Shown piece after piece: positions 6,340 through 42,432 of a stretch of 64,000 bases of DNA. Where the stretch lies: assembly GCA_963715595.1 (NCBI GenBank), contig OY970255.1, positions 155,796 through 219,795 on the forward strand, written 5' to 3'. The translations under genes and the position numbers were made by a program. The notes beneath the pieces were generated by a model. The model worked only from the letters and a program-made list of their open reading frames with translations, was not told the DNA's origin and made no database searches. The stretch's first letter is position 1, and the number at the start of each line of letters is the position of its first letter. Origin of the DNA: an uncultured Actinomycetota bacterium. GTDB taxonomy: Bacteria; Actinomycetota; Actinomycetes; Actinomycetales; CAWJMD01.

Positions 6340-7880
6340 GTGATCGACCTCGAGGCCGCGCACCGCGAGATCGAGCGACGAGGAGCACCCTCGCGCGAGC
6401 GCCAGTCCTGGGCGACCGGTCTGCCGTTCGTCGGTCGAGGGACCCGACCAGGTCGTCGCGCGCGCCGCCGAGCGGCGCGCCGCCCGCACCGCCCGGGTGC
6501 TGCGCCGGGTGGTCGCCACCGACCTGGTGCTCGCCGCCGCCGTCATGACGGTGACGCCTCGTCGGCCTCCTCGGCGGTGGCGCCGCCGCCGTCCTCGGCC
6601 TGGCCGCCGGCACCGCGTGGGTGGCGCTGCTCGCCCTGCTGCGCGGGTACGACCGCCGCCGCGTCGGCGACGGCCCGGAGGAGTTCCAGTCGCCGTGCTG
6701 CGCGGCGGCCGTCATCGCGGTCGCCGCGTCGGGCCTCGCTCGCCTACCGCCTCGAGCTGTTCCTGCCGCGCCGCGTCGTGCTCGTCGCGATCCCGCTGAT
6801 CGGCCGCGCTGACGCTGATCGGGCGCTACGCCTGGCGCCGGTGGCTGCACACCCGCCGCGCGCCCGGCGTCGACGTCGCCCGCACCCTGGTCGTCGGCGA
6901 CGGCCCGGCCGTGGCCGAGGTCGTCCGCGACCTGCGCCGCGAGCCGTACCACGGCCTCGTCCGTCGTCGGCGCCTGCGTGCCCGCGTACGCGGCTCCGAC
7001 GTCGACGAGACCGCCGGCGCCGCCGATGCTCGGCGTCATCTCCGAGGTGCCGCAGGTCGTGCGTCGACCACGACGATCGACACCGTGATCGTCGTCGGCT
7101 CCCAGCTCACCGGGCAGCCGCTGCGGCGCCTGTCGTGGGCGCTGGAGCACACCGGCGCCGAGCTGATGGTCGCCCCCGGCCTGGTCGAGGTCACCGGCCC
7201 CAACGTCGACCCTGCACCCCGCCGCGGGCCTGTCGCTGCTGCGGGTCGAGCGACCTGCCGCGCGCTCCGGCCGGCTGGCTCGCCAAGTCGGCCCTCGACC
7301 GCGGCCTCGGCGGCTGCTGCTGTTCCTCGCGGCCGCTCCCGGTCATCGGTGTCGCCGCGCTCGCTGGTCCGGGCCACGAGCCCCGGCCCGGCCTTCTACG
7401 CCCAGCAGCGGGTCGGTCGCGACGGCGCCGAGTTCACGATGTGGAAGCTGCGCAGCATGGTGGTCGACGCCGACCAGCTGCGTCGACCGAGCTGGCCGAC
7501 GCAGGACGAGGGCGACGGGCTGCTGTTCAAGATGCGCAGCGACCCGCGGGTCACCGCCGGTGGGCCGGGTGCTGCGCCGGCTCTCGCTCGACGAGCTGCC
7601 GCAGCTGTGGAACGTGGTGACGCGGCGACATGTCGCTCGTCGGCCCGCGTCCGCCGCTGCCGCAGGAGTACGCCCAGTACCACGACGACGGTGCACCGCC
7701 GGCTGCGGGTGCAAGCCCGGCCTCACCGGCCTGTGGCAGGTCAGCGGGCGCTCCGACCTGTCGTGGGAGGAGTCGATCCGGCTCGACCTGCGCTACGTCG
7801 ACAACTGGTCGGCGGCGATGGACCTGCAGATCCTGTGGAAGACGGCCCGCGCCGTCGTCTCGGGTGCCGGCGCCTACTGA
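6340..7880 (+). CDS. exopolysaccharide polyprenyl glycosylphosphotransferase (WbaP/bacterial sugar transferase family); heavily frameshifted
   Basis: The C-terminal catalytic domain reads SPGPAFYAQQRVGRDGAEFTMWKLRSM...DGLLFKMRSDPRVT...LRRLSLDELPQLWNVV...MSLVGPRPPLPQEY...KPGLTGLWQVSGRSDLSWEESIRLDLRYVDNWS. The upstream CoA-binding-like region (TLVVGDGPAVAEVVRDL...IDTVIVVGS) and TM segments are spread over all three frames, with at least 6 shifts. The start is uncertain. Confidence 0.8.
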
Positions 7881-7972
7881 CGGCGTCACGCCAGCACTAC
7901 CGAACGGGCCTGTCCGGGGTCGTCCCCGGGCCGGCCCGTTCGGTCGTCCCGGCGCACGGGTACGGTCCCCGG

Positions 7973-8554
7973 ATGACCCAGGCACCCGTCGACCCTGCGC
8001 CGGGCGCGGGCCGCGCACCGGCACGGACCGGGCTGGGGGCGTTCCTGGTCGCCGGCGGTGTGGTGTGGGCGCTCACGGCGGCCCTGGCGGTGGTGGCCGC
8101 GGTCGTGCTGTCGTCGAGCTCGGACGTGGCGGCGACCTCGACGTTCGGTGCCGGTCAGACGGTGGTGGCTCCGGAGCCGGACGGGGTGCGCGGCCCGCTG
8201 GTCGTGTACGGGCAGGACGTGCCGGTGCGGGGGTCGAGGACGCTCGCGGCCGGGTGCGAGGTCGTCAGCCCGCGCGGCGGCGAGCGGATCGTGACGAGCG
8301 CACGCGGCGCGGACCCGATCACGGTCGACGGGGTCGACCTGGTCCCGCTGGTGCAGACGAGCGGGTGGCGACCGGGTGACTCGGTGACGTGCTCGGGTGA
8401 GGGCGCGTCGGCGCTGGCACCGTTCGCCGCGGTGCCGACGGGTGCGCCCGGGACGGCCCGGGCGGTCGCGGTCGCGCTGGCGGTCCTGGGCGCACTGGGC
8501 GCGGCGGTGTTCCTCGTGGGCGGCGCAGCGGTCCTGCGTCGTCGTCGCAGTTGA
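7973..8554 (+). CDS. hypothetical membrane protein (N- and C-terminal TM helices flanking an extracytoplasmic domain)
   Basis: Intact ORF from the ATG at 7973: MTQAPVDP...GLGAFLVAGGVVWALTAALAVVAAVVL...AVAVALAVLGALGAAVFLVGGAAVLRRRRS*. No recognisable family. Confidence 0.5.
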   Translation: MTQAPVDPAPGAGRAPARTGLGAFLVAGGVVWALTAALAVVAAVVLSSSSDVAATSTFGAGQTVVAPEPDGVRGPLVVYGQDVPVRGSRTLAAGCEVVSPRGGERIVTSARGADPITVDGVDLVPLVQTSGWRPGDSVTCSGEGASALAPFAAVPTGAPGTARAVAVALAVLGALGAAVFLVGGAAVLRRRRS

Positions 8555-8576
8555 CGGCACCGGTGCCCGGACGCGC

Positions 8577-8609
8577 GAGACCCCCGCCGGCAGGGCCGAC
8601 GGGGGTCTC
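8577..8609. terminator. bidirectional hairpin between convergent genes
   Basis: gagacccccg (8577-8586) pairs with cgggggtctc (8600-8609). This is a 10-bp perfect stem with a 13-nt loop, lying between the stops at 8554 (+) and 8628 (-). Confidence 0.55.
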
Positions 8610-8627: not shown

Positions 8628-8906
8628 TCAGGCGCGGCGGTTGCCCTGGGTGCGCGAGACGCGGTGCAGGAGGATGCCGCCACCGACGAGCGCGGCACCG
8701 ACGCCGGCCCCGAGGCCGAGCTCGGCACCGGTGAAGGCCAGCGCGCGGTTCTCGGTGCGGTCGGCGACCCGGGTCGCCGGGGCCACCGTGCTGCTGGTGG
8801 GCTCGACCGAGGTGGGCGGGTACGTGGCGGCGAGCGCCGGGGCGCCGCCGACGGCGGTGAGGCCGGCCACGAGGGCGGCAGAAGCGAGAACTCGGCGGTA
8901 CTTCAT
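8628..8906 (-). CDS. small secreted sortase substrate (LAFTG cell-wall sorting signal)
   Basis: MKYRRVLASAALVAGLTAVGGAPALA|ATYPPTSVEPTSS...LAFTG-AELGLGAGVGAALVGGGILL-HRVSRTQGNRRA*. This is a signal peptide, a short P/T/S-rich mature region, an LAxTG motif, a hydrophobic helix and a basic tail. An AGGGGG Shine-Dalgarno lies upstream of the ATG. Confidence 0.6.
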   Translation of the reverse strand: MKYRRVLASAALVAGLTAVGGAPALAATYPPTSVEPTSSTVAPATRVADRTENRALAFTGAELGLGAGVGAALVGGGILLHRVSRTQGNRRA

Positions 8907-9146: not shown

Positions 9147-10931
9147 TCAGCCGCAGGTGCGTCCGGCGGCGTCCTGCGCGCCGTCGACCGGCCGCACCAG
9201 CGGCTGCACCTGCACCCGGGGCACGTCCGGGTCGCCGGCCAGGCGGGCGACCAGCGTGGTCGTGGTGCCCGGTGCGAGGTCGACGCTGGTGCGCACCACC
9301 TGCCACCCGCGCAGGGGGTCGACGGCGACGTCCTGGGTGGCGCCGTCGACGGTCAGCCCGGCCAGGCCGCGGGTGGGCGGCAGCAGCAACGACAGCGTCA
9401 CCCGGTGCGAGAAGGGGTCGAGCCCGTCGAGGTGGCTCTGCGCGTAGTCGGGGAGCGTGGGCGGCGGGGCGTAGTCGAGCGACACCTCGACGAGCGGCCC
9501 GTCGTCGCACCGGGCGGCCACGGCGACCCGCAGGTACTGGTCGAGCTTGGACGCGTCGATGTTGGTGAGGTGCAGCCGCACCTGGTCGGTCGCCACGTCG
9601 GCGTCGGGCAGGTGCCCGGCGACGCCGGCGCCGACCAGCGCCTCCTGGACCTGCGGGTCAGCCGACCACAGCTGCACGTGCCGGTCGACCAGCGACCGGC
9701 CGACGGCCTGCCCCACGGCGGGGTCGCCCCAGTCGGCCTCGAGCAGCGAGTCGAAGACGCCGACCATGACGGCGGACAGGTAGGCGCGCCGGGCGGCGTC
9801 GTCGTCGGCGAAGGTGCGGTAGGCGTCGGCCTGGACGACCTGGACGAGGTTCTCGCGGGTCAGGGGCGGGCCGCCCGGCACCTCGACCGAGCCGGTGGCG
9901 CCGAGCACCCGGGCCAGGGCCACGACGTCGATGCCGACCACGCCGTCCGGTGCGGGCCGGCCCTGCGCGGTCCAGACCTCGCTCAGCAGCCCGGCCGCCA
10001 CCGGGAAGTCGGGGACGAGGTTGACGTTCGGGCTGAGCGCGAGGTCCTGGCCGTACAGCGCCAGCACCTCCTCGGGCAGCTCGGGCAGGCGGCCGCGCAA
10101 CGACTCCAGGTCGTCGTTGGCCCCGGTCTCGAGCAGCGACACCGCGCCGCCGTCGACCTCCAGCAGCGCCCAGCTGCCCACGATGCCGCCGGTCGGACGC
10201 GCCTCCGCCAGGTTCTGGGCGGCGAGCAGGTACGAGCGGGGGCCGTCGGCGCCGAGCGCGCCGGGCAGCACGGCGAGCAGGCCGTCGGCGCGCCGCACCT
10301 GGTCGTCGAGCTCGACCAGCGCGGCGACGGCGTCGAGGGTGCGCTGCTCCAGCGGCGGCACCATCGCGGTGGCGTCGACGCCCTCGACGTCGGCGCGCAG
10401 CCGCGCGCTGGTCGCCGCCGCACCGGCCACGACGTCGCCCGCCCCCCGCAGCGCGACCAGGTCGACGGCGCCCGCCGGGGCCTGCTCCTGGGCGGCGAGG
10501 AAGGCGCGGGCGGCGCCGAGGGACGGGACGACGACCTCCGCGGCCGCCGCGTGGGAGGAGGTGGCGAGGGTGCGGACGCCGCGGACGTCGTCGCCGACGA
10601 CCGGCACGAGCGAGGCCACGGCGAACGGGACGCTTCCGGCCGCGCCGTCGGCCCGCTCGAGGTGCTCGGCCGCCTGCTGGGCGCGGGAGTGGGCCAGGTC
10701 GAGGTCGCGCGCCGCCAGGGCGGCGCGGGCGCCGGTGAGCTCCTGCTCGCCGGCCCGTGCCTCGCGCGCCAGGACGTAGGCCTCCCAGCCGCCCCAGACG
10801 CCGAGCACCAGCACCGCCAGCAGCACCGCCTGCAGGCCGCGGCGCACCCAGGTGCGGGTCGCGCCCTCGGCCGGGCGCGTCGCGCTCTCGTCCGGTCGGG
10901 GTGCACCGCCGACGGTGTCGTGCTCCGTCAC
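9147..10931 (-). CDS. DUF4012 domain-containing membrane protein (typical of actinobacterial cell-envelope glycan loci)
   Basis: Intact ORF. It has an N-terminal TM (GLQAVLLAVLVLGVWGGW), a coiled region and the block YLLAAQNLAEARPTGGIVGSWALLEVDGGAVSLLETG, characteristic of DUF4012. GTG at 10931 is chosen as the start; the track ORF extends to 11012. Confidence 0.7.
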   Translation of the reverse strand: MTEHDTVGGAPRPDESATRPAEGATRTWVRRGLQAVLLAVLVLGVWGGWEAYVLAREARAGEQELTGARAALAARDLDLAHSRAQQAAEHLERADGAAGSVPFAVASLVPVVGDDVRGVRTLATSSHAAAAEVVVPSLGAARAFLAAQEQAPAGAVDLVALRGAGDVVAGAAATSARLRADVEGVDATAMVPPLEQRTLDAVAALVELDDQVRRADGLLAVLPGALGADGPRSYLLAAQNLAEARPTGGIVGSWALLEVDGGAVSLLETGANDDLESLRGRLPELPEEVLALYGQDLALSPNVNLVPDFPVAAGLLSEVWTAQGRPAPDGVVGIDVVALARVLGATGSVEVPGGPPLTRENLVQVVQADAYRTFADDDAARRAYLSAVMVGVFDSLLEADWGDPAVGQAVGRSLVDRHVQLWSADPQVQEALVGAGVAGHLPDADVATDQVRLHLTNIDASKLDQYLRVAVAARCDDGPLVEVSLDYAPPPTLPDYAQSHLDGLDPFSHRVTLSLLLPPTRGLAGLTVDGATQDVAVDPLRGWQVVRTSVDLAPGTTTTLVARLAGDPDVPRVQVQPLVRPVDGAQDAAGRTCG

Positions 10932-11142: not shown

Positions 11143-11955
11143 GTGCGCCCAGACGAGCAGCCCGGACCCGGTGCCGCGACCGACCACGCGAGCGACCACG
11201 CGCTGGCGCGCGAGCTGGCGGCGCGTGCGGGGGAGGAGCTGGTGCGGGTGCGCGCCGAGCTCGAGGCGGCCGGGACCCCCGCGGCCGAGGTCAAGGACCG
11301 TGGCGACGCGGTGTCGCAGGAGCTGCTCGCGCGGCTGCTGGCCGAGCACCGTCCGGGCGACGCCGTGCTGAGCGAGGAGAGCACCGACGACCCCGTCCGG
11401 CTGCAGGCCGACCGGGTCTGGATCATCGACCCGCTCGACGGGACCCGGGAGTTCTCCGAGCCGGGCCGCACCGACTGGGCCGTGCACGTCGCCCTCTGGT
11501 CGCGCGGCGAGCTGGTGGCCGGCGCCGTCGGTCTGCCGGCGGCCGGCCTGGTGCTCGCCACCGACGACCCGCCGCCGGTGCCCCGGCGTCCGCAGGCACG
11601 GCTCCGCCTGGCGGTCAGCCGCTCCCGCCCGCCCGCCTTCGTCGACGAGCTGGCGACGCTGCTCGACGCCGAGCTGGTGCCGATGGGCTCCGCCGGGGTC
11701 AAGGCGGTCTCGGTGCTGCGCGGCGACGCCGACGCCTACGTGCACGCCGGCGGCCAGTACGAGTGGGACAACGCCGCCCCCGCCGCCGTCGCGGCCGCGT
11801 CGGGCCTGCACACCAGCCGCGTCGACGGCTCGCCGCTGCGCTACAACCAGCCCGACCCGAGCCTGCCGGACCTGCTGGTGTGCCGTCCGCAGGACGCGTC
11901 CGTCATCCTGGACGCCGTCCGCAGCATCGCCGACCGAGGGGCCGTCCGCGCATGA
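11143..11955 (+). CDS. cysQ: 3'(2'),5'-bisphosphate nucleotidase (PAP phosphatase)
   Basis: Intact ORF with IMPase-fold motifs LSEES, WIIDPLDGTREF and YEWDNAAP. The stop overlaps the cysD start (ATGA). Confidence 0.8.
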   Translation: MRPDEQPGPGAATDHASDHALARELAARAGEELVRVRAELEAAGTPAAEVKDRGDAVSQELLARLLAEHRPGDAVLSEESTDDPVRLQADRVWIIDPLDGTREFSEPGRTDWAVHVALWSRGELVAGAVGLPAAGLVLATDDPPPVPRRPQARLRLAVSRSRPPAFVDELATLLDAELVPMGSAGVKAVSVLRGDADAYVHAGGQYEWDNAAPAAVAAASGLHTSRVDGSPLRYNQPDPSLPDLLVCRPQDASVILDAVRSIADRGAVRA

Positions 11956-15637: not shown

Positions 15638-15740
15638 CCTCACCCGAACGGACCACATGGGGCACAACCGGTCACCCAGCGCGACCACCGCCGGTTACGC
15701 TGGGACCGGCTCGGGGACCGACGTCAGGACGGCAGGAACC

Positions 15741-18670: not shown

Positions 18671-18685
18671 GTGGTGGGCGCAGCG

Positions 18686-29896: not shown

Positions 29897-29948
29897 CGGG
29901 ATCGGGGTCGGTCAACGGGTGGGGTGACGCGACGTCGACACGCATCCA

Positions 29949-32222: not shown

Positions 32223-32233
32223 CCCCGCACCAC

Positions 32234-36276: not shown

Positions 36277-37196
36277 AGGCCGACCAGGTCGCGACCCACG
36301 AGCCGGCCGAGCGCGTCGATCTCGGGCCGCATCTGCGCGAGCAGGCGCGCGCGCAGCTCGGGGTCCATCCGCGCGCCGGCGACCGGGGCCGCGTTCAGGC
36401 GGTAGAGCAGCTTCCAGGCGCCGTCGCGCCACACGGCGGTGCGCAGGCGGGCCGGCACGGCCCGGCGGACCAGCGCGCGTCCGGGCGGGTCGCGCAGCAC
36501 GTCACGCAGCACCGCGCTGCGCGAGCGGCTGCGCTGCTTCTCGACCGTCGTGCCCGGCCGGTGGGTGTCGTCGAGATCGAGGAAGCGCAGCAGGGCGGCG
36601 TGGGTGCCCTCCGGGTCGTCGCGCAGGTCGTCGAAGACCACGACGTGGGTGCGCTCGGGCCCGAACACGTCCAGGAAGCGGGCGACCTGCGGGCTCAGGG
36701 TCGCGGCGTCGACGTAGCCCACGCCGGGCGGGAACGGCGCGCGGGGCGGGCGCCGGCCCGGCTCGCCGTCGCGCTCGAGCGCCTCGGCGAAGTCCTCGAG
36801 GTCCTCCTCGCCGGTGAACAGCCGCATGCCGTGCAGCGAGAACATCATGTCGACGGGGTTGCGGACCGCGACCACCACGCGCGCCTGCGGCGAGAAGGAC
36901 GCGATCTCCTGCGCGGCGGTCGCGGAGCGCAGGTACCAGGCCGACGCCTCCAGCAGCCGCGCCTCCTCGCGCGCGCCCGAGAACAGGTCGAGGTACTCCT
37001 GCTCGGAGCGGTCCGACAGCGGCAGGTCGCGGCCGAAGAAGTTGGGCTCCTTCAGCGGGCAGGCGAACACGTCGGGGTGCGCGGCGAGCCGGGAGTACAG
37101 CGTGGTCGTGCCGCACTTGGCCGCGCCGACGACGAAGGTGTCGGGTCGGCGCGCTGCGGCGGCCCGGACGGCCCGCCCCGAGGTCACGGGCTCCAC
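36255..37196 (-). CDS. sulfotransferase 3 (class A)
   Basis: Intact from the GTG at 37196: DTFVVGAAKCGTTTLY (PSB loop), RVVVAVRNPVDMMFSLH (PB motif). Confidence 0.8.
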   Translation of the reverse strand: MEPVTSGRAVRAAAARRPDTFVVGAAKCGTTTLYSRLAAHPDVFACPLKEPNFFGRDLPLSDRSEQEYLDLFSGAREEARLLEASAWYLRSATAAQEIASFSPQARVVVAVRNPVDMMFSLHGMRLFTGEEDLEDFAEALERDGEPGRRPPRAPFPPGVGYVDAATLSPQVARFLDVFGPERTHVVVFDDLRDDPEGTHAALLRFLDLDDTHRPGTTVEKQRSRSRSAVLRDVLRDPPGRALVRRAVPARLRTAVWRDGAWKLLYRLNAAPVAGARMDPELRARLLAQMRPEIDALGRLVGRDLVGLWCSPAS

Positions 37197-37280
37197 CCCT
37201 CGAGGATAGGTGGCCCGCGACCGGCGTGGGCCCCGGTTGGGCGTGCTGCCCGGGCGGGCCCGGACGTCGGCACGCCTCGC

Positions 37281-37367
37281 TGTCACGCTGCGTGAGGCGT
37301 TGGTCCAGTCGTAGCAACCGTCCGTCACCGGCTACGGTCCGTGCGGTCTGGACCCGATCCAGGATCG
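37281..37367 (+). promoter_or_regulatory. conserved upstream leader, copy 2
   Basis: See 29949-30035. It contains acccgatcc-a-ggatcgg, which abuts the GTG start. Confidence 0.45.
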
Positions 37368-39725
37368 GTGTCCACCGCCACTCCCGTCTCCCGCCGCCGT
37401 CGTCTGCTCGGTCTCGCCCTCGCGACCGCGCTCGTCGGACCGCTGGTCACCCCCCTGGTCCTGGGCGGAACCGCAGCACCCTCCGCCGCCGCGACGCTGA
37501 CCCTGCGCCAGCCGATGCCCGCCGACGCGGTCGTCGACATGGTCGGCATCAACGTGCACACCGCGAGCCGTGAGCACTACGGCGACAAGGCCCGCGTCAC
37601 CGCGGCGCTGCGCGAGCTGGGTGTGCGGCACGTGCGCGACCGCGTGTACACCAATCGCCCGGACCAGTACGACCGGCTGCGGGCGCTCGGCGCGGAGGGC
37701 ATCGGCCTGAACGTCATCGCCGGCGACCCGACCCTGGCCGGCGGGACGCCCGAGGCGATCGTGCAGACCGCCGTCCGCGAGCTGCCGGGCATGGTCGAGA
37801 GCTACGAGGGCGCCAACGAGTGGAACCTCAAGCGCCGCCCGAACTGGGCCGCCGAGCTGCGCGCGCACCAGACCCGCCTCTACGGGGCGGTGCGCGCCAA
37901 CCCGGTGCACTCCCGCGTGCCCGTGATGGCGCCGGCGCTCGGCCAGCGCGAGGGCCGCGAGGAGCTCGGCTCCCTCGCCGGCATCGCCGACCTGGGCAAC
38001 AACCACCTCTACATGGGCGGCCGCGAGCCGTCGTGGCTGGTCGACCAGGAGCTGAGCCGCGAGCGCGCCCTGAAGGTCCCGAACAAGCAGGTCGTGGTGA
38101 CCGAGGCCGGCTACCACGACGCGATGGTCGACCCGACCACCCACTTCCCGACCCCGCAGGACGTCTCGGCCGACTACCTGCCGCGCTGGGTGATGGAGTA
38201 CGCCAAGCGCGACGCCCTGACCCACCAGGTCTACCTCTACCAGCTGATGGACGAGGGCACGAACAACGCCGACCGCGAGGACAAGTTCGGCCTCGTGCGA
38301 CCGGACTTCACCCGCAAGCCCGGCTTCACCGCGCTGAAGAACACCCTGGCCCTGTTCGAGGACCCGGGCGGCTACCAGCCCCAGCCCACCCCGCTCGCGC
38401 TCGGCGTCACCTCCACCGCCACCGACGTGCAGACCCTGGTCACCCAGCGCCGCGACGGCAGCTACGTCCTGGCCGTCTGGCGACGCACCAGCTCCTGGCA
38501 GCAGAAGGACGAGGTGCGCCTGGCGGTCCCCGCGGTGCCGGTCACCCTCGACCTGGCCACCGCGATGGACGCCGCCGTGCACACCCCCACCACCTCCGCC
38601 ACGCCCCGCTCGACCGCGACCCGCACCACCCGGGTCAACCTCTCGGTCGGCAACGGCCTGCAGGTCGTCAAGCTCACCGCCCCGGTCAGCACGCCGCCGC
38701 CGACCACGCCGCCGCCGACCACGCCGCCGCCGACCACGCCGCCGCCGACCACGCCGCCGCCGACCACGCCGCCGCCGACCACGCCGCCGCCGACCACGCC
38801 GCCGCCGACGTCCCCGACGACGCCGCCGACGACGTCCCCGACGACCCCCTCGACGCCCGCCCCGTCCCCGTCCCCCTCCCCGACGGGTGACGTCGTCGCG
38901 CCGAGCTCGCGGCTGGCGCTGTCGGCCACCGCGACCGGCAGCGGCGACCTGGTGGCGGTGGGCGCCAAGGGCGTCCCGAACCACCTGGAGTGGTCCGCCG
39001 AGGAGGGCCTCGGCCGGCCGCGCGCCCTCAGCGGCCAGACCGACTACGCACCGGCCCTGACCCGGGCCCCCGACGGCAGCCTCGACGCCCTCGTCGTCGG
39101 CACCAACGGCGCCCTGTACTCCAGCCGCCAGGCCGCGGGCTCGTCGTCCTGGAGCCCGTGGACGCGCGTCGGCGGCGCCCTGGTCGGGCGCCCGGCGGCG
39201 ACCACCTGGCCCGACGGCACCCTGCAGGTCTTCGCGGCCGGCACCGACCGCGCCGTGTGGCAGACCTGGCGCACCCCGCAGGGCCGGTGGGCCGGCTGGC
39301 ACAAGACCGGTGGCCTGGTGGCCGCGGGCACCGGCGTCTCGGTGTCGTCGGCCCCCGACCGGACGCTGACCGTGGCCGTCCACGGCGCCGACCACGCGGT
39401 CTGGACGACCGGCTGGCGTCCGGGCGGCGGCTGGCAGCGGGGCTGGACCTCCCTCGGCGGCGCCCTGCTCGGTGACCCGGCCGTGGCGGTCGACGGCGCG
39501 AGCGGCCGCGCGGTCGTGGTGGTGCGCGGCACCGACCACGTCGCCTACGCCCGCGACGTCAGCGGACCCGGCGCCGCCGGGTGGACCCGCCTCGGCGGCG
39601 TCCTCGGCGGGTCGCCCGCGGTCTCGACCGTGCCCGGTGCCGGCGTGGACGTCGTGGTGGTCGCCCCCGGCGACCGGCTGCTGCACCTGACCCGCACCCG
39701 CGGCTCCTGGTCGGCCTGGAGCTGA
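37368..39725 (+). CDS. secreted clan-GH-A-like hydrolase + (PPPTT)n linker + PLL/DUF346-like 5-bladed lectin-type beta-propeller
   Basis: Intact ORF. The catalytic domain is almost identical to 30036. A Pro/Thr linker follows, then repeats with W-x2-W-x2-[LV]GG spacing (WSPWTRVGG, WAGWHKTGG, WQRGWTSLGG, AGWTRLGG, SWSAWS*). The start is placed at the GTG at 37368 by homology; the track ORF begins at 37341. Confidence 0.7.
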   Translation: MSTATPVSRRRRLLGLALATALVGPLVTPLVLGGTAAPSAAATLTLRQPMPADAVVDMVGINVHTASREHYGDKARVTAALRELGVRHVRDRVYTNRPDQYDRLRALGAEGIGLNVIAGDPTLAGGTPEAIVQTAVRELPGMVESYEGANEWNLKRRPNWAAELRAHQTRLYGAVRANPVHSRVPVMAPALGQREGREELGSLAGIADLGNNHLYMGGREPSWLVDQELSRERALKVPNKQVVVTEAGYHDAMVDPTTHFPTPQDVSADYLPRWVMEYAKRDALTHQVYLYQLMDEGTNNADREDKFGLVRPDFTRKPGFTALKNTLALFEDPGGYQPQPTPLALGVTSTATDVQTLVTQRRDGSYVLAVWRRTSSWQQKDEVRLAVPAVPVTLDLATAMDAAVHTPTTSATPRSTATRTTRVNLSVGNGLQVVKLTAPVSTPPPTTPPPTTPPPTTPPPTTPPPTTPPPTTPPPTTPPPTSPTTPPTTSPTTPSTPAPSPSPSPTGDVVAPSSRLALSATATGSGDLVAVGAKGVPNHLEWSAEEGLGRPRALSGQTDYAPALTRAPDGSLDALVVGTNGALYSSRQAAGSSSWSPWTRVGGALVGRPAATTWPDGTLQVFAAGTDRAVWQTWRTPQGRWAGWHKTGGLVAAGTGVSVSSAPDRTLTVAVHGADHAVWTTGWRPGGGWQRGWTSLGGALLGDPAVAVDGASGRAVVVVRGTDHVAYARDVSGPGAAGWTRLGGVLGGSPAVSTVPGAGVDVVVVAPGDRLLHLTRTRGSWSAWS
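37497..38687 (+). repeat. near-identical 1.19-kb duplication, copy 2
   Basis: See 30165-31355. Confidence 0.9.
38691..38810 (+). repeat. perfect 15-bp tandem repeat x8 encoding (TPPPT)8
   Basis: acgccgccgccgacc is repeated 8 times head to tail; only the final base of unit 8 differs. Degenerate P/T/S codons continue to about 38886. Confidence 0.95.
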
Positions 39726-39828: not shown

Positions 39829-40797
39829 TCAGCGCGAGGTGTCGTCGGCCTTCTCGGCGGTGGCGTCCGGCTGGGCGGCGCGCTGGGCGCGCCGCTCGGC
39901 CGCGAAGGTGAGCGGCAGGCCGTGCCGGCGCCGCACCAGCGCCCAGACGAGGGGGCCGGCGACGAACGCGGCGAGCAGGGCCACGCCGAGCTCGACGTTG
40001 CCGACCCCGAGCAGCTTCAGCGCCGAGGCGAGCAGCACGTAGACCAGGGCCCAGCGCACCAGCCGCCCGTTCACCCGGGACGACACGGCCGCGCCGACCA
40101 GCACGCCGGGGATGCCGCCGATCAGGATGCCGGCGGCGATGTCGAGCTGGAAGTCGCCGAGCAGCAGGTGGCCGAGGGCGGCCGCGGCCACCAGGGGCAC
40201 CGCCTGGGTGAGGTCGGTGCCGACGAGCTTGTTCATCTTCAGCATCGGGTACAGCGCGAGCAGGGCGACGATGATGAGCGAGCCGGACCCGACCGAGGTG
40301 ACGCCGACGACCAGGCCGCCGACGGCGCCGACGAGCACGGTCGGCAGGCGGCGCACCTGCACCCGCGCCGGGACGTCCTCGTCGCTGACGGCCGTGCCGT
40401 TCACCCGCTCGCGCAGCCGCACGTAGGCGCGCGCGGCCAGCCCGGCGACCGCGAGCAGCAGGGCGACGCCGAGGGCGATCTGGATCAGGTCCTGCACGTC
40501 CTGGCCGTCGCCGAGCGAGCGCGCGAGCAGCACCCCGAGGAAGGCGGACGGCACCGACCCGACGCACAGCCAGCCGACGAGCGGCAGGTCGACGGTGCCG
40601 CGGCGCAGGTGCACGCCCGCCCCGAACGGCTTCATCACCGCCGTGGCGACCAGGTCGCTGCTCACGGCCGCCAGCGGGGGGATGCCGAAGAAGATGACCA
40701 GCATGGGCGTCATCAGGGCGCCACCGCCCATGCCGGTGAGGCCGATGACGATGCCCACGCCGAACGCGCTGAGCACGAGGAGCAGCTCGGTGCCCAC
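39829..40797 (-). CDS. TauE/SafE-family anion permease
   Basis: Intact ORF: MGTELLLVLSAFGVGIVIGLTGMGGGALMTPMLV...VGVTSVGSGSLIIVALL..., about 8 TM. It starts 9 nt downstream of the cysC stop, so it is probably in the same operon. Confidence 0.8.
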   Translation of the reverse strand: MGTELLLVLSAFGVGIVIGLTGMGGGALMTPMLVIFFGIPPLAAVSSDLVATAVMKPFGAGVHLRRGTVDLPLVGWLCVGSVPSAFLGVLLARSLGDGQDVQDLIQIALGVALLLAVAGLAARAYVRLRERVNGTAVSDEDVPARVQVRRLPTVLVGAVGGLVVGVTSVGSGSLIIVALLALYPMLKMNKLVGTDLTQAVPLVAAAALGHLLLGDFQLDIAAGILIGGIPGVLVGAAVSSRVNGRLVRWALVYVLLASALKLLGVGNVELGVALLAAFVAGPLVWALVRRRHGLPLTFAAERRAQRAAQPDATAEKADDTSR

Positions 40798-40806
40798 GTC
40801 GACCTC

Positions 40807-42109
40807 CTAGAGGGCGCCGGCCGCGCGCACCGCGTCGAGCACGGCGGCGGCGGCCTCGTCGGTGGACGTCGTGGAGGTGTCCACGACGAGGTCGGCGTCG
40901 ACGGGCGCCTCGTAGGGGTCGTCGATGCCGGTGAAGCCGGTGATCTCGCCGCGGCGCGCGGCCGCGTACAGGCCCTTGCGGTCGCGCTGCTCGCACACCT
41001 CGAGCGGGGTGCTGACGTGCACGAGGACGAACCGGGCCCCGACCTGCTCGGCCATGGCGCGCACGTCGTCGCGCACCGAGGCGTAGGGCGCGATGGGGGC
41101 TGCCACGGCCAGGCCGCCGTGCCGGGCCACCTCGGCCGCGACGTACCCGATGCGGCGCACGTTCAGGTCGCGGTCCTCGCGGGAGAAGCCGAGACCGGCC
41201 GAGAGCAGGCGGCGCACGTCGTCGCCGTCGAGCAGCGTGACGGTGCGTCCGGCCGAGCGCAGCAGGTCGGTGACCGCGCGGGCCACGGTCGACTTGCCCG
41301 AGCCGGACAGGCCGCTGAGCAGCACGACGGCGCCGGGACGCTGCACCGGCGCGGCGTCGTCCTCACCGGGCTCGGGGTCGGGCAGCGCGAGCAGCTCCAC
41401 GCCGGTCGCGGTCAGGGCCGTCGCGGTGGGGGCCGTCGCGGTGGGGGCGTCGGCGCCGGCCGCGGTCACCAGGGCGGCCGCCTGCGCGCCGTGCCCGCGC
41501 GCGAGCACCAGCTCGCGCACCGCCGCGGGGACGGCGCAGGTGGCCGCGGGGGCGGGCAGCGGGACGGCCCGCACGTCCTCGGACGCGGGCCCGGCCAGCC
41601 GCAGCACGGCCGGCACCAGCCGCTCGGGCGGCTCGGCGCCGGGACGCCCGGAGCCGGTGAGCACCAGCCAGGTCAGGGGCAGGCCGCGCTCGCGGGCCCG
41701 CGCGCGCAGCGCCTGCACCTGGTTCGGGGCCGGGAGGGTGTCGACCACCGCGACCAGGCGGGGCGCGTCGTCGCCCGGACCGCGGACGAGGTCGTGGAAC
41801 GCGTGCCGGCCGAAGGGGCGCAGCCAGTCGAGCCGGCCGTGCACCGAGCAGCCGGCCGGGTCGGCCGCCGCCGGCGCCAGGACGTGCAGCACCGCCAGCA
41901 CGGTGCCCTCGGGATCGGCCAGCGCGACGCGGTCGCCGGGTCCGACGGCGTCGGGCGCGAGCGGCAGCCGCTGGCGGTGCGCGCCGGGCGGGCCGTCGTC
42001 GAGCGCGTCGAGCCTCGGCGGACAGGTCGAGGGAGGCGAGGGCGAGGTCGTCCAGGCACGGGCCGTCGAGGACGACGTGGGACGAGGGCGCCGCGGGGTC
42101 GGCGGTCAT
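40807..42109 (-). CDS. cysC: APS kinase with N-terminal degenerate ATP-sulfurylase-like domain; 1 frameshift
   Basis: The C-terminal domain is VVLLSGLSGSGKSTVA...LLDGDDVRRLLSAGLGFSREDRDLNVRRIGYVAAE...PYEAP (CysC). The N-terminal roughly 200 aa (HVVLDGPCLDDLALASLDL...GDRVALADPEGTVLAVLHV...) resemble the PUA-like and early catalytic part of Sat but lack the QTRNP and HRAH motifs. The frame shifts near 42012. Confidence 0.8.
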
Positions 42110-42114
42110 GGTGG

Positions 42115-42432
42115 TCAGTGCCGGGTCCGGCGTGCCGACACCGACATCGCGGTGCCACCGCCGACGAGCAGCAGCCCGACGCCGGCCCAGCCGGCCGCCT
42201 GCACACCGGTGCGGGGCAGCTGCAGGCCGAGCACGTCGACGTGGGAGTTGACCGTCACGCGGGGGCCGGTGCGCGGGGCGTCCTGCTCGGTGACGCTGCC
42301 GACGGACGGGACGGGGGTCGACGGCGGGTAGGTCGCGGCGGCGGCGGGCGTCGCGGCGGCGGCGAGGGCGCCGGCCAGCACGCACGCGGCAGCGAGACCG
42401 CGCAGCCTGCGTACCGCACCCACCACGACCAC
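42115..42432 (-). CDS. small secreted sortase substrate (LPRTG), paralog of 8628-8906
   Basis: It occupies the last ~105 codons of the long shadow ORF 42115-45981. VVVVGAVRRLRGLAAACVLAGALAAAATPAAA|ATYPPSTPVPS...LQLPRTG-VQAAGWAGVGLLLVGGGTAM-SVSARRTRH*. A GGGGAGGGG Shine-Dalgarno lies upstream of the GTG at 42432. The stop is 5 nt before the cysC start. Confidence 0.55.
   Translation of the reverse strand: MVVVGAVRRLRGLAAACVLAGALAAAATPAAAATYPPSTPVPSVGSVTEQDAPRTGPRVTVNSHVDVLGLQLPRTGVQAAGWAGVGLLLVGGGTAMSVSARRTRH

What the first reader, a model, noticed from the sequence alone, without database searches (positions are those of the whole stretch)
6340..42432. 36-kb Wzx/Wzy glycan island with its own PAPS supply, inserted between pth and mfd
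The flanking genes (glmU-prs, rplY-pth, mfd) are close neighbours in the mycobacterial reference arrangement (Rv1014c-Rv1020). Here about 36 kb sits between pth and mfd. It carries a complete Wzx/Wzy toolkit: a WbaP-like primer, a flippase, a Wzy-like polymerase, Wzz, three GT4 enzymes and DUF4012. It also carries cysQ-cysD-cysN, a separate APS kinase, a TauE permease, three sulfotransferases and a suite of secreted hydrolase, lectin and beta-helix proteins. No PAPS/APS reductase or sulfite reductase is in the window, so activated sulfate looks destined for sulfuryl transfer rather than cysteine synthesis. Sulfated cell-surface polysaccharides are barely characterised in Gram-positive bacteria. 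This gene combination is not a described system as far as I know. No integrase, transposase or flanking direct repeat is visible, so it does not look like a recent mobile insertion.
Basis: partly seen in the sequence, partly recalled or inferred. Interest (0 to 1): 0.85.

Follow-up and report, generated by a model that had tools for sequence, protein, structure and literature searches.

The report
Sulfated-polysaccharide gene clusters flanking mfd
A high-GC actinobacterium carries two neighbouring gene sets for building a surface or secreted polysaccharide, with nine sulfate-adding enzymes and the genes that make their sulfate donor; the type has been predicted before but never shown chemically in this bacterial group.

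Summary
Between pth (5462-6106) and mfd (42553-46212) lie a WbaP-type primer, DUF4012, cysQ-like/cysD/cysN, Wzx, three GT4s, three sulfotransferases, an APH-like kinase, a Wzy, a Wzz-like protein, TauE, a separate APS kinase and secreted proteins.

- A second Wzx/Wzy cluster (49480-62880, between mazG and eno) has six more sulfotransferase domains. The window holds nine, all with PAPS-binding motifs.
- cysC, TauE or sulfotransferase genes lie directly upstream of mfd in 13 of 67 related Micrococcales loci. The site is a recurrent variable glycan locus, not a one-off insertion.
- About 52 frame changes hit 21 genes, including glmU, rplY and pth. They are most likely assembly indels.

The secreted "hydrolases" are a rare family with a PslG-like fold. 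One carries a PLL-type lectin propeller.

Best explanation: repeat units are sulfated in the cytoplasm on the lipid carrier with locally made PAPS, then flipped, polymerised and trimmed.

It is not undescribed. Actinoplanes wps-1 (2026), Vibrio sulfated CPS (2024) and cyanobacterial xss (2021) are the same kind. I rate it a new variant of a known kind. No sulfate ester has been shown.

The parts
5462..6106 (+). pth (peptidyl-tRNA hydrolase), left conserved anchor; 1 frame change
   Evidence: Pept_tRNA_hydro, 207.7 bits, matched across the frame junction
6432..7880 (+). WbaP-type polyprenyl-phosphate hexose-1-phosphate transferase (primer); about 12 frame changes but catalytic motifs intact
   Evidence: Bac_transf, E 2.4e-58, 197 bits, profile positions 17-178 of 179, matched across four frame pieces
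7973..8554 (+). Small membrane protein of unknown function
   Evidence: Coding signal; no Pfam hit
8628..8870 (-). 80-aa secreted protein ending in LAFTG, a hydrophobic stretch and a basic tail (sortase-type sorting signal)
   Evidence: Translation; no Pfam hit
9147..10931 (-). DUF4012 membrane protein (EPS-locus associated)
   Evidence: PF13196, E 6.6e-37; DUF4012 is named in the paper that identifies the Bifidobacterium longum 105-A CPS/EPS locus (PMC5412050; passage not read)
11143..11955 (+). CysQ-like 3'(2'),5'-bisphosphate nucleotidase (PAP removal)
   Evidence: Inositol_P, E 5.8e-29; TIGR01331 scores only 94 bits against a 228.8 cut-off
11952..12863 (+). CysD, sulfate adenylyltransferase small subunit
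   Evidence: NF003587 447.7 bits and TIGR02039 441.3 bits, both above cut-off
12863..14116 (+). CysN, sulfate adenylyltransferase GTPase subunit, without a fused APS kinase
   Evidence: TIGR02034, 571 bits against a 336 cut-off; matches only positions 23-432 of the 632-position bifunctional model
14103..15637 (+). Wzx-type flippase 1 (1 frame change near 14855; DDAK(T/A) repeat loop)
   Evidence: Polysacc_synt, E 4e-13; an intact L081 homologue aligns across the frame switch
15618..18670 (+). Secreted right-handed beta-helix protein with CopC/Ig-like and fn3 domains (1 frame change near 17148)
   Evidence: NosD, Beta_helix, CopC, Big_5 and fn3 hits; 52% identical to the L081 beta-helix protein across the shift
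18671..19747 (+). GT4 glycosyltransferase
   Evidence: Glycos_transf_1, E 1.6e-28
19751..20705 (+). Sulfotransferase P (2 frame changes)
   Evidence: Sulfotransfer_3, E 6.6e-13; KSGST and RQP..R..S motifs; 54% identical to an L081 sulfotransferase
20800..21640 (+). Sulfotransferase Q (1 frame change)
   Evidence: Sulfotransfer_1, E 4.4e-9; motifs; 62% identical to an L081 sulfotransferase
21649..22701 (+). APH-family kinase-like protein, conserved next to the two sulfotransferases
   Evidence: PF01636, E 1.6e-13; 51% identical to the L081 homologue in the same position
22696..23993 (+). GT4 glycosyltransferase (about 8 frame changes)
   Evidence: Glycos_transf_1, E 4.9e-35 on the stitched product
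23968..25243 (-). PslG-like GH paralogue T (3 frame changes; the one near 24780 is a 1-nt extra base relative to L086, about 82% identical in DNA)
   Evidence: Aligns to the L081 family member in two frames; indel mapped
25240..26649 (-). PCP/Wzz-like protein with two membrane segments and a C-terminal degenerate P-loop domain
   Evidence: Wzz, E 0.0059, below the cut-off; architecture read from the translation
26926..29841 (+). Secreted beta-propeller protein with Ig-like and fn3 domains and a C-terminal module shared with W
   Evidence: Weak DUF5122, Big_13 and fn3 hits; more than 1285 actinobacterial homologues, often fused to PKD or malectin domains; found near cysC/TauE in 7 related mfd loci, and upstream of mfd in 4 more
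30036..32222 (+). PslG-like GH paralogue W with fn3. Its 5' end (the first ~300 nt plus the 80 nt upstream) is 88-89% identical to AB; a 300-nt stretch near its 3' end is 90% identical to V
   Evidence: Repeats D2, D3, D9; alignment A1
32310..33599 (-). PslG-like clan GH-A glycoside hydrolase X (429 aa, secreted)
   Evidence: AF2 pLDDT 88.6; Foldseek top hits PslG, E 3e-20, TM about 0.6; invariant N146-E147 and T240-E241; only 19 family members found
33744..34823 (-). GT4 glycosyltransferase
   Evidence: Glycos_transf_1, E 1.1e-17
34799..36271 (-). Wzy-type polymerase 1 (frame change near 34880, where the window lacks 13 nt relative to L085)
   Evidence: Wzy_C, E 4.2e-5, below the cut-off; an intact 490-aa homologue in L085 has a Wzy_C hit on record
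36255..37328 (-). Sulfotransferase AA (carbohydrate-sulfotransferase-like)
   Evidence: Sulfotransfer_3 and Sulfotransfer_1; PDB 3rnl E 1.8e-32, heparan sulfate 3-O-sulfotransferases E about 1e-6
37341..39725 (+). PslG-like GH domain, a Pro/Thr linker (15-nt tandem repeat) and a PLL-type beta-propeller lectin
   Evidence: A1; repeat D1; C-terminal 278 aa match Photorhabdus PHL/PLL lectins at E 6e-48
39829..40797 (-). TauE/SafE (TSUP) permease, candidate sulfate importer
   Evidence: PF01925, E 3.8e-41; lies next to cysC, just upstream of mfd, in L010, L027, L028, L031, L032, L045 and L058
40807..42105 (-). APS kinase CysC with a vestigial ATP-sulfurylase-like N-terminal extension (start uncertain, frame change near 42011)
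   Evidence: APS_kinase, E 4e-57; TIGR00455 188.7 bits against a 138.7 cut-off; best PDB hit 3cr8
42115..42432 (-). 105-aa secreted protein ending in LPRTG, a hydrophobic stretch and RRTRH (LPxTG sorting signal)
   Evidence: Translation
42553..46212 (+). mfd, the conserved anchor between the two clusters
   Evidence: TRCF, UvrB_inter, CarD_TRCF_RID, DEAD
49480..51492 (+). Cluster 2: apparent GT4-sulfotransferase fusion (2 frame changes; no stop between the domains)
   Evidence: GT4 domains plus Sulfotransfer_3 and Sulfotransfer_1 on the stitched product
51500..53478 (-). Cluster 2: two sulfotransferases (51500-52414; 52417-53478)
   Evidence: Sulfotransfer_3, E 1.9e-18 and 2.3e-16
53501..54760 (-). 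Cluster 2: GT4 glycosyltransferase (3 frame changes)
   Evidence: Glyco_trans_1_4, E 1.9e-31
54763..55698 (+). Cluster 2: sulfotransferase
   Evidence: Sulfotransfer_3, E 7e-13
55678..57124 (+). Cluster 2: lipoprotein with weak GH39/GH44/GH5 similarity
   Evidence: Pfam E 0.002-0.01, below the cut-offs
57117..58760 (.). Cluster 2: two sulfotransferases (57117-57955 on +; 57946-58760 on -)
   Evidence: Sulfotransfer_3, E 1e-18 and 2.2e-39
58757..62880 (-). Cluster 2: Wzz (58757-59859), Wzx/MOP flippase (59924-61468), Wzy_C polymerase (61453-62880)
   Evidence: Wzz 26.6 bits against a 25.5 cut-off; Polysacc_synt E 6e-16; Wzy_C E 8.7e-19

Best explanation
The window holds two adjacent Wzx/Wzy-dependent loci that make sulfated cell-surface or extracellular heteropolysaccharide(s). 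They sit at a variable glycan site anchored on conserved housekeeping genes: glmU-prs-rplY-pth | cluster 1 | mfd-mazG | cluster 2 | eno.

Proposed sequence of events:
1. Sulfate enters the cell, possibly through the TauE/TSUP permease. This step is inferred.
2. CysDN makes APS, the stand-alone CysC makes PAPS, and the CysQ-like phosphatase removes the PAP by-product. The identities of CysD, CysN and CysC are shown at curated-model level. CysQ is shown only at family level.
3. The WbaP-type transferase primes undecaprenyl phosphate and GT4 enzymes extend the repeat unit. The families are shown; the sugars are unknown. Neither cluster encodes nucleotide-sugar or uronic-acid synthesis genes, so sulfate may be the main source of negative charge. 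This is inferred.
4. Soluble sulfotransferases without signal peptides (three in cluster 1, six in cluster 2) sulfate the lipid-linked unit on the cytoplasmic face. This is inferred from PAPS being cytosolic, from GT4-ST-ST-kinase microsynteny, and from an apparent GT4-sulfotransferase fusion.
5. Wzx flips the unit, and Wzy polymerises it with a PCP/Wzz.
6. Secreted PslG-like hydrolases (five paralogues, one carrying a PLL lectin), a beta-helix protein and a beta-propeller protein bind, trim or release the polymer. The folds are shown; the role is inferred by analogy with PslG.

The many frame changes are most likely assembly indels, not decay of the locus.
For: - Domain content of both clusters.
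- CysD, CysN and the apsK domain score above NCBIfam cut-offs.
- All nine sulfotransferase domains exceed Pfam gathering scores and keep the 5'-PSB loop (K/R-x-G-S/T-T/S/N) and the 3'-PB R...S motif. They are only 19-39% identical to each other.
- Sulfotransferase AA matches a solved bacterial sulfotransferase (3rnl, E 1.8e-32) and heparan sulfate 3-O-sulfotransferases.
- An independent locus, L081, keeps the same core (Wzx, beta-helix, APH kinase, ST, ST, GT4, Wzy-like, X-family GH) at 36-62% protein identity. L083 has mfd-TauE-...-ST-ST-ST-GH-...-Wzy-...-ST-Wzx.
- 13 of 67 related mfd loci carry cysC, TauE or sulfotransferases directly upstream of mfd.
- The X family has a PslG-like fold with invariant N-E and T-E catalytic pairs.
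- From established knowledge: actinobacterial assimilation runs through APS reductase, so APS kinase and a PAP phosphatase point to sulfuryl transfer.
- Published precedent names PAPS genes plus sulfotransferases inside a polysaccharide cluster as a hallmark of sulfated polysaccharide synthesis (PMC11641403). Deleting the adjacent sulfate adenylyltransferase/APS kinase gene gave a severe sporangium-formation defect in Actinoplanes, and the two wps-1 sulfotransferases are also needed for normal sporangium formation (PMC13390465).
- For the indel reading: essential genes (glmU, rplY, pth) are broken too. Conserved catalytic motifs remain intact across the shifts in the primer gene. Intact homologues align straight across the shifts.
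Against: - No chemistry exists. No sulfate ester has been shown for any of these loci, or for the Actinoplanes locus.
- The substrate of the sulfotransferases is inferred from gene neighbourhood only.
- The cysDN/cysC genes may be the genome's only copies and may also serve assimilation. An APS or PAPS reductase elsewhere on the 3.8-Mb contig could not be looked for.
- Wzy 1 and Wzz 1 score below Pfam gathering cut-offs in the window.
- Cluster 2 has no primer of its own.
- Frame changes are strongly clustered (12 in the primer gene, 8 in one GT4) and are not enriched at homopolymers. Real inactivation of cluster 1 is therefore not excluded.
- No LCP ligase or export component was identified, so the final location of the polymer (free EPS, capsule or wall-linked) is unknown.
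Confidence: 0.7

Rival explanations
1. The cysQ-cysDN-cysC-TauE genes are the organism's ordinary sulfate-assimilation genes and happen to lie beside mfd in this lineage. Glycan genes have gathered around them, and activated sulfate mainly feeds cysteine synthesis.
For: L058 has cysQ-cysD-cysN-cysC-TauE next to mfd with no sulfotransferase within 10 kb. L010, L028 and L031 have cysC-TauE next to mfd, again with no sulfotransferase in range. An Rrf2 regulator with a sub-threshold match to CymR, together with a second TauE, sits between prs and rplY. The rest of the genome could not be searched for a second cysDN copy or a reductase.
Against: No APS/PAPS reductase or sulfite reductase is present in 64 kb. 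From established knowledge, APS kinase and a PAP phosphatase are unnecessary for APS-reductase-type assimilation in actinobacteria. Nine sulfotransferase domains lie in the same 64 kb. The PAPS genes bracket the glycan core instead of lying beside cysH or sir genes.
Confidence: 0.12
2. The locus, or at least cluster 1, is a decaying pseudogene array. The frameshifts are real and no polymer is made.
For: There are about 52 frame changes, concentrated in the primer gene (12) and one GT4 (8), while long genes such as mfd and V have none. The changes are not enriched at homopolymers. Some differences from a close relative are multi-base, for example -13 nt in Wzy.
Against: Essential genes glmU, rplY and pth are broken as well. 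No in-frame stop codons occur inside the coding frames, which were defined to exclude them, and catalytic motifs are intact across shifts. Bac_transf still scores 197 bits over profile positions 17-178 of 179. Intact homologues align directly across the shifts. One related metagenome-assembled contig (L083) also has a TauE gene split in two and an mfd cut short at 876 aa, which fits an assembly artefact.
Confidence: 0.08
3. The sulfated glycan is not a free Wzy-polymerised EPS. It is transferred to another acceptor: a wall-linked secondary polymer, or Ser/Thr-rich small sortase-anchored proteins through the Wzy_C-family proteins acting as O-oligosaccharyltransferases. That would give a proteoglycan-like surface layer.
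For: Two tiny secreted proteins with LAFTG and LPRTG sorting signals and Pro/Ser/Thr-rich mature parts bracket cluster 1. The cluster 2 Wzy_C protein has weak similarity to O-glycosylation ligases (PEP_O_lig_1 E 7e-10, TfpM E 4e-7, far below their cut-offs). Each cluster has only one Wzy_C-family protein.
Against: Each cluster has a Wzz/PCP, which implies polymerisation. The ligase hits are far below the cut-offs. The two small proteins are not clearly related to each other (E 0.04). No sortase or LCP gene is in the window.
Confidence: 0.07

Closest known systems
Actinoplanes missouriensis wps-1 cluster (AMIS_7280-7380) with adjacent AMIS_7390 (PMC13390465, 2026)
   Same: It is actinobacterial and Wzx/Wzy/Wzz-dependent. 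It has two sulfotransferases of different subfamilies, one of them heparan-sulfate-sulfotransferase-like. It also has a glycoside hydrolase, a protein-kinase-like gene and a neighbouring sulfate adenylyltransferase/APS kinase gene. A sulfated EPS is predicted but not verified chemically.
   Different: It is in a different order (Micromonosporales). It uses GT2 and GT26 glycosyltransferases and a GH26 hydrolase, not GT4s and PslG-like hydrolases. It has a methyltransferase and a DUF4262 protein. It has 2 sulfotransferases against 9 here, no CysQ or TauE is reported in the cluster, and it is not located at pth/mfd. Homology between its kinase-like WpsI and the APH-like protein here was not tested.
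Synechocystis PCC 6803 xss (synechan) cluster (PMC8205485)
   Same: It is Wzx/Wzy/PCP-dependent with two sulfotransferases embedded among glycosyltransferases. Genetics and chemistry show that its product is a sulfated EPS.
   Different: It is Gram-negative and plasmid-borne and needs an OPX protein. A search of the paper's text for PAPS and APS kinase found no mention, so no PAPS-synthesis genes are reported for the cluster. It has an XssQRS regulatory module that is absent here.
Vibrio sp. KMM 8419 sulfated capsule locus (PMC11641403)
   Same: The polysaccharide locus carries its own second copies of cysC, cysN and cysD together with three sulfotransferases. The authors call this combination a hallmark of sulfated polysaccharide synthesis. 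The sulfated structure was solved by NMR.
   Different: It is an ABC-transporter (Kps) pathway in a Gram-negative bacterium. It includes dTDP-rhamnose and UDP-glucose genes and mobile elements.
PslG of Pseudomonas aeruginosa (PDB 4zn2, 5bx9, 9g17)
   Same: It is the best structural match of the X family: a clan GH-A barrel plus a beta-sandwich, with the N-E acid/base and the E nucleophile conserved. It is encoded inside the EPS operon whose product it cleaves.
   Different: Sequence identity is only 17%. X has no Pfam GH39 hit. There are five paralogues here, several of them fused to fn3, Ig or lectin modules.
Mycobacterium tuberculosis CysDNC/CysQ/Stf sulfation system (from established knowledge; review PMC3141025 was listed but not read)
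   Same: It is an actinobacterial PAPS pathway that serves sulfotransferases acting on cell-envelope molecules. CysQ removes PAP.
   Different: In M. tuberculosis CysC is fused to CysN, the acceptors are glycolipids and menaquinone, and the genes are not embedded in a Wzx/Wzy locus.

Membership tests
Wzx/Wzy-dependent polysaccharide assembly locus | Initiating polyprenyl-phosphate glycosyl-1-phosphate transferase | tested here: met
   Bac_transf scores 197 bits against a 27-bit cut-off in cluster 1. None was found in cluster 2.
Wzx/Wzy-dependent polysaccharide assembly locus | MOP-family flippase (Wzx) | tested here: met
   Polysacc_synt scores 49.8 bits (cluster 1) and 59.1 bits (cluster 2) against a 28.2-bit cut-off.
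Wzx/Wzy-dependent polysaccharide assembly locus | Wzy-type polymerase (Wzy_C / O-antigen-ligase-like membrane protein) | tested here: met
   Cluster 2 scores 68.2 bits against a 31.7-bit cut-off. Cluster 1 scores 23.8 bits, below the cut-off, but the intact homologue in L085 has a Wzy_C hit on record.
Wzx/Wzy-dependent polysaccharide assembly locus | Polysaccharide co-polymerase (Wzz/PCP) | tested here: inconclusive
   Cluster 2 scores 26.6 bits against a 25.5-bit cut-off. Cluster 1 scores 17.3 bits, below the cut-off; its two-membrane-segment architecture was judged by eye only.
PAPS-dependent sulfotransferases (Sulfotransfer_1 / Sulfotransfer_3) | Profile match above the curated threshold | tested here: met
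   All nine domains exceed the gathering score of at least one of the two models.
PAPS-dependent sulfotransferases (Sulfotransfer_1 / Sulfotransfer_3) | 5'-phosphosulfate-binding loop and 3'-phosphate-binding R...S motif | tested here: met
   The alignment of the nine domains shows K/R-x-G-S/T-T/S/N and R-x-x-x-x-x-x-x-S in every one. AA aligns through both motifs to 3rnl and to heparan sulfate 3-O-sulfotransferase.
PAPS-dependent sulfotransferases (Sulfotransfer_1 / Sulfotransfer_3) | Sulfuryl transfer from PAPS to a carbohydrate acceptor | not testable with these tools
   This needs an enzyme assay. The acceptor is inferred from gene context only.
Sulfate activation pathway (CysD, CysN, CysC, CysQ) | CysD and CysN at curated-model level | tested here: met
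   CysD: NF009214 scores 427.7 bits against a 413 cut-off. CysN: TIGR02034 scores 571 bits against a 336 cut-off.
Sulfate activation pathway (CysD, CysN, CysC, CysQ) | APS kinase domain | tested here: met
   TIGR00455 scores 188.7 bits against a 138.7 cut-off. The best PDB hit is 3cr8 at E 7e-57, in the kinase domain only.
Sulfate activation pathway (CysD, CysN, CysC, CysQ) | CysQ PAP phosphatase at equivalog level | tested here: not met
   TIGR01331 scores 94 bits against a 228.8 cut-off. Only membership of the Inositol_P family is established. It may still act as a PAP phosphatase, because actinobacterial CysQ proteins are divergent (from established knowledge).
Dedicated (non-assimilatory) PAPS supply | A separate assimilatory cysDN/cysH set elsewhere in the genome, or no PAPS reductase at all | not testable with these tools
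   Only 64 kb of a 3.8-Mb contig is available. No reductase is present in the window.
GH39 / PslG-like glycoside hydrolases (clan GH-A) | (beta/alpha)8 barrel with a C-terminal beta-sandwich, closest to PslG | tested here: met
   The model has pLDDT 88.6. Foldseek top hits are PslG at E 3e-20, probability 1.00, TM 0.58-0.64, followed by GH39 enzymes.
GH39 / PslG-like glycoside hydrolases (clan GH-A) | Conserved acid/base (N-E) and nucleophile (E) residues | tested here: met
   N146, E147, T240 and E241 are invariant in 19 sequences. I did not superpose them on the PslG catalytic residues.
GH39 / PslG-like glycoside hydrolases (clan GH-A) | Sequence-profile membership of GH39 | tested here: not met
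   X, W, T and AB have no Pfam hit. phmmer against PslG gives only E 0.037. I therefore file the family as PslG-like in fold, not as GH39.
Mobile genomic island | Integrase or transposase, flanking direct repeats, tRNA target, atypical composition | tested here: not met
   No mobility domains were found. No flanking repeats were found. The only tRNA (Gln, 278-351) is separated from the locus by housekeeping genes. GC content matches the flanks.
PLL/PHL beta-propeller lectins | Repeated propeller blades matching solved PLL-family lectins | tested here: met
   The AB C-terminus matches 5mxe, 6rfz and 5c9o at E 6e-48 to 2e-43, in 4-6 repeated stretches.

The most novel reading that the evidence does not exclude
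Some Micrococcales make densely sulfated, uronic-acid-free surface polymers that resemble glycosaminoglycans. In this reading, up to six different sulfotransferases act on one short repeat unit, and the glycan is displayed on tiny sortase-anchored Ser/Thr/Pro-rich peptides. That would be a bacterial proteoglycan, remodelled by a private family of PslG-like hydrolase-lectin enzymes. The pth|mfd and mazG|eno sites would serve as a serotype-like variable locus for this chemistry.
Probability: 0.07. Interest if true: 0.85.

Novelty: new variant of a known kind. Interest (0 to 1): 0.55.

Why it matters
Among bacteria, sulfated polysaccharides have been demonstrated chemically in cyanobacteria and a few marine Gram-negatives. 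For actinobacteria, in the papers I read, there is only a genetic prediction from 2026.

This locus shows that a complete sulfation toolkit recurs at one chromosomal site across several Micrococcales families, including cultured Knoellia, Terrabacter, Cellulomonas and Phycicoccus strains. The toolkit comprises a candidate sulfate permease, APS and PAPS synthesis, PAP removal, many divergent sulfotransferases, Wzx/Wzy assembly and dedicated hydrolases.

The question [quoted passage not shown] therefore becomes directly testable. Sister species that lack the locus, such as Knoellia sinensis and Janibacter HTCC2649, can serve as natural controls.

The locus also offers nine divergent bacterial carbohydrate sulfotransferase candidates and a new PslG-like hydrolase family. 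These could be of use for making sulfated polysaccharides and for interpreting sulfated EPS reported in granular sludge (PMC10483923).

Tried and rejected
- Exact-sequence look-ups of three window proteins returned nothing, so the source contig is not in that index.
- A plain ORF list is unusable at 75% GC. A first GC3 filter and a greedy ORF caller missed frameshifted genes. I replaced them with a six-frame Viterbi segmentation.
- I tested whether frame changes sit at homopolymers. There is no enrichment: 9.6% of junctions against 10.6% of random positions have a run of 5 or more. Junction positions are only approximate.
- PDB sequence searches for the beta-propeller protein V and for DUF4012 gave nothing significant.
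- Pfam at E up to 5 found nothing for the lectin domain, the 192-aa membrane protein or the two small sorting-signal proteins.
- I tested whether the two small LPxTG/LAxTG proteins are paralogues marking island ends. The match is only a 14-residue stretch at E 0.04, so this is not supported.
- I considered a flanking direct repeat or an integrase. None was found; the long repeats are internal paralogues (W/AB, V/W, X).
- I considered that the N-terminal extension of CysC is a functional ATP sulfurylase. Only a 20-residue vestige aligns to 3cr8, and there is no Pfam ATP-sulfurylase or PUA_2 hit.
- Literature searches found no chemically characterised sulfated polysaccharide from Micrococcales.
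- The second structure-prediction job, the representative-library search and the third homologue search were left unused, because none would have changed the verdict.

Full report
**Gene calling.** The window is about 75% GC throughout, and a raw ORF list is meaningless at that composition. A codon-statistics Viterbi segmentation over six frames, checked against stop-codon distances, showed that many genes change frame internally. I stitched frame-corrected products and scanned them against Pfam and NCBIfam.

**Backbone.** The order along the window is:
- tRNA-Gln (278-351)
- glmU (448-1952)
- prs (1949-2923)
- an Rrf2 regulator (2947-3399)
- a TauE permease (3529-4519)
- rplY (4737-5465)
- pth (5462-6106)
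- cluster 1
- mfd (42553-46212)
- an FAD oxidoreductase (46306-47537, -)
- a MazG-RlaP ORF (47547 to about 49383)
- cluster 2
- eno (63049 onwards)

**Cluster 1 (6432-42432).**
- WbaP-type primer (Bac_transf, 197 bits).
- DUF4012.
- A CysQ-like Inositol_P protein, CysD and CysN. CysN is GTPase only.
- Wzx.
- A beta-helix/Ig/fn3 secreted protein.
- Three GT4s.
- Three sulfotransferases.
- An APH-family kinase-like protein.
- A Wzz-like protein (weak hit).
- A Wzy_C protein. It scores below the cut-off here, but its intact 490-aa homologue on a contig about 83% identical in DNA over this region has a Wzy_C hit on record.
- TauE.
- A stand-alone APS kinase.

CysD, CysN and the apsK domain exceed NCBIfam's curated cut-offs. 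CysQ does not (94 bits against 228.8), so only family membership is shown for it. The APS kinase is closest to the two-domain enzyme 3cr8. Only a vestige of the sulfurylase-like N-domain is detectable.

No reductase, sulfatase, integrase or transposase was found in the window. Apart from the housekeeping glmU, no nucleotide-sugar gene was found either. No flanking direct repeat or compositional break marks the segment.

An inverted repeat encoding two sulfotransferase P-loops (I4) led me past mfd. Positions 49480-62880 form a second Wzx/Wzy cluster. It contains:
- an apparent GT4-sulfotransferase fusion;
- five further sulfotransferases;
- a GT4;
- a GH-like lipoprotein;
- Wzz, a MOP flippase and a strong Wzy_C protein (E 9e-19).

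It has no primer of its own.

The window therefore holds nine sulfotransferase domains. All exceed a Pfam gathering score. All keep the 5'-phosphosulfate loop and the 3'-phosphate R...S motif. They share only 19-39% identity with each other, so they are not recent duplicates. Sulfotransferase AA matches a solved bacterial sulfotransferase (3rnl, E 1.8e-32) and then the heparan sulfate 3-O- and N-sulfotransferases. None has a signal peptide or membrane segment, judged by reading the translations.

**Frame changes.** I count about 52 frame changes in 21 genes. They are real features of the sequence:
- Profile matches run straight across the junctions, for example pth and Bac_transf.
- Intact homologues from L081 align in successive frames across Wzx, the beta-helix protein, both sulfotransferases and the T hydrolase.
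- One junction is a single extra base relative to L086, which is about 82% identical in DNA.

I read them as assembly indels for three reasons. The essential genes glmU, rplY and pth are hit too. Catalytic motifs stay intact across the shifts. One related metagenome-assembled contig (L083) also has a TauE gene split in two and an mfd cut short at 876 aa.

Two caveats remain. The changes are strongly clustered (12 in the primer gene, 8 in one GT4). They are also not enriched at homopolymers. Real inactivation therefore keeps a small probability.

**Organism and synteny.** The source contig is 3.80 Mb. The best Mfd matches are two uncultured Actinomycetota/Actinomycetales MAGs (85% and 83%). Cellulomonas, Kineosporia, Knoellia and others follow at about 70%.

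I compared all window proteins with 80 mfd loci. Of the 67 loci with at least 5 kb upstream:
- 13 carry cysC, TauE and/or sulfotransferases directly upstream of mfd. These include Cellulomonas sp. APG4, C. composti, Knoellia pratensis, Terrabacter aeriphilus, Phycicoccus jejuensis, P. sonneratiae, Actinotalea and Tetrasphaera MAGs, and L058, which also has cysQ-cysD-cysN.
- 20 have pth within 10 kb of mfd and no sulfation gene. Six of these have pth only 8-173 nt away, for example Knoellia sinensis and Janibacter HTCC2649.

Even the two closest MAGs differ in content. L001 has Wzy-TauE-ST-ST upstream of mfd and cysC between mazG and eno. L002 has nothing between mazG and eno. WbaP-like genes occupy the mazG|eno gap in L021, L028 and L048.

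The two gaps therefore behave like the variable polysaccharide loci held between conserved flanking genes in other bacteria. They do not look like a single recent insertion. A profile built from the nine sulfotransferases finds only one or two such genes within 10 kb of mfd in relatives. The count in this window is unusually high.

**Conserved core elsewhere.** The X protein (32310-33599) has only 19 detectable relatives among 5.8 billion proteins, and their contexts repeat the theme:
- L081/L082 carry X-family GH, Wzx, beta-helix, APH kinase, ST, ST, GT4 and a Wzy-like protein. Identity to the window proteins is 36-62%.
- L083 carries mfd-TauE-...-ST-ST-ST-GH-...-Wzy-GT4-ST-Wzx.
- L085 keeps ST-Wzy-GT4-X.

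**Secreted proteins.**
- The X family aligns with invariant N146-E147 and T240-E241. It models confidently (pLDDT 88.6). Its best structural matches are PslG (E 3e-20, TM about 0.6), the hydrolase encoded within the Pseudomonas Psl EPS operon, followed by GH39 enzymes. It has no Pfam GH39 hit, so I call it PslG-like in fold, not GH39. Paralogues are T, W, X and AB in cluster 1, and possibly the lipoprotein at 55678-57124.
- W and AB are 88-89% identical over the first ~300 nt and the 80 nt upstream of the start, and remain paralogous (about 70% DNA identity) further in. V and W share a 300-nt stretch near their 3' ends at 90%. This indicates recent duplication and domain shuffling.
- The V propeller belongs to a large actinobacterial family often fused to PKD or malectin domains. 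It lies near cysC/TauE in seven of the related mfd loci, and upstream of mfd in four more.

**Mechanism.** The best-supported model is cytoplasmic sulfation of lipid-linked repeat units with locally made PAPS, followed by Wzx flipping, Wzy/PCP polymerisation and extracellular trimming.
- Shown: the gene families, the PAPS-binding motifs, the hydrolase and lectin folds, and the conserved synteny.
- Inferred: the acceptor, the site of sulfation, sulfate import by TauE, the role of the kinase-like protein, and the fate of the polymer.

The lack of uronic-acid or nucleotide-sugar genes suggests that sulfate supplies the negative charge.

**Comparison with what is known.**
- The Actinoplanes missouriensis wps-1 cluster has Wzx/Wzy/Wzz, two sulfotransferases, GH26 and a kinase-like protein. 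The cluster is needed for normal sporangium formation, and deleting the adjacent sulfate adenylyltransferase/APS kinase gene gave a severe defect. It is predicted, but not shown, to make a sulfated EPS (PMC13390465).
- Vibrio KMM 8419 has a chemically defined sulfated capsule. Its locus carries second copies of cysC, cysN and cysD plus sulfotransferases, and the authors call that combination a hallmark (PMC11641403).
- Cyanobacterial xss is the genetically proven Wzx/Wzy case (PMC8205485).
- DUF4012 is named in the paper that identifies the Bifidobacterium longum 105-A CPS/EPS locus (PMC5412050; I did not read the passage).

This is a new variant, with these features:
- It is in Micrococcales.
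- It is a paired cluster around mfd-mazG.
- It integrates cysQ, cysDN, cysC and TauE.
- It has nine divergent sulfotransferases.
- It has a private PslG-like hydrolase family.

**Verdict.** I give the sulfated-polysaccharide reading about 0.7 confidence. The finding is of moderate to high interest, because it makes an open chemical question testable in cultured strains. It is not categorically new.

Noticed in passing
window 49480-62880: A second Wzx/Wzy cluster lies between mazG and eno. It has six sulfotransferase domains, two GT4s, Wzz, Wzx, Wzy and a GH-like lipoprotein, but no primer gene. It lies outside the finding's coordinates.
   Followed up: yes
window 49480-51492: An apparent GT4-sulfotransferase fusion. 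The GT4 C-terminal helix and the sulfotransferase N-terminus lie in the same frame with no stop between them, but two frame changes (near 50553 and 51134) make this uncertain. The relatives L027 and L045 have the two parts as separate genes.
   Followed up: partly
whole window; densest at 6432-7880 and 22696-23993: About 52 internal frame changes in 21 genes, including glmU, rplY, pth and a TauE. They are clustered (12 in the primer gene, 8 in one GT4) and not enriched at homopolymers. They are most likely assembly indels, but the clustering is unexplained.
   Followed up: partly
window 29931-30317 vs 37263-37649; 28965-29264 vs 31346-31645: Recent internal duplications. W and AB share the first ~300 nt at 89% plus 80 nt of upstream sequence at 88% (a shared promoter?). 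V and W share a 300-nt stretch near their 3' ends at 90%. Hydrolase and display modules are being shuffled.
   Followed up: partly
window 8628-8870 (-) and 42115-42432 (-): Two tiny secreted proteins with sortase sorting signals (LAFTG and LPRTG) and an 'ATYPP(T/S)' start to the mature part bracket cluster 1. Similarity between them is marginal (E 0.04). They could be glycan acceptors.
   Followed up: partly
window 38690-38880: A 15-nt tandem repeat encodes (TPPPT)n, a Pro/Thr linker between the hydrolase and lectin domains of AB. It is the kind of linker that is often O-glycosylated in actinobacteria.
   Followed up: no
window 14800-14920: A DDAK(T/A) tandem peptide repeat lies in a loop of flippase Wzx 1, right at the frame change.
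   Followed up: no
window 2947-4519: An Rrf2-family regulator (weakly CymR/IscR-like, below cut-offs) and a second TauE/TSUP permease are inserted between prs and rplY. They may be a sulfur-responsive regulator and transporter pair linked to the sulfation loci.
   Followed up: no
window 47547-49478: MazG is fused to an RlaP (DNA-polymerase-beta-family nucleotidyltransferase) domain in one ORF. The true C-terminus is probably in another frame, with a stop at 49383. The two closest MAGs (L001, L002) also show a long MazG-RlaP match.
   Followed up: no
window 21649-22701; L081 13076-14035: An APH-family kinase-like gene is conserved immediately after the ST-ST pair in an unrelated locus (51% identity). 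The Actinoplanes wps-1 cluster also has a protein-kinase-like gene, WpsI. This may be a conserved but unexplained component of actinobacterial sulfated-glycan clusters.
   Followed up: partly
window 40807-42137: The APS kinase carries an N-terminal extension of about 190-230 aa. Only a 20-residue vestige resembles the PUA-like part of ATP sulfurylase, as in the two-domain enzyme 3cr8. The true start and one frame change are unresolved.
   Followed up: partly
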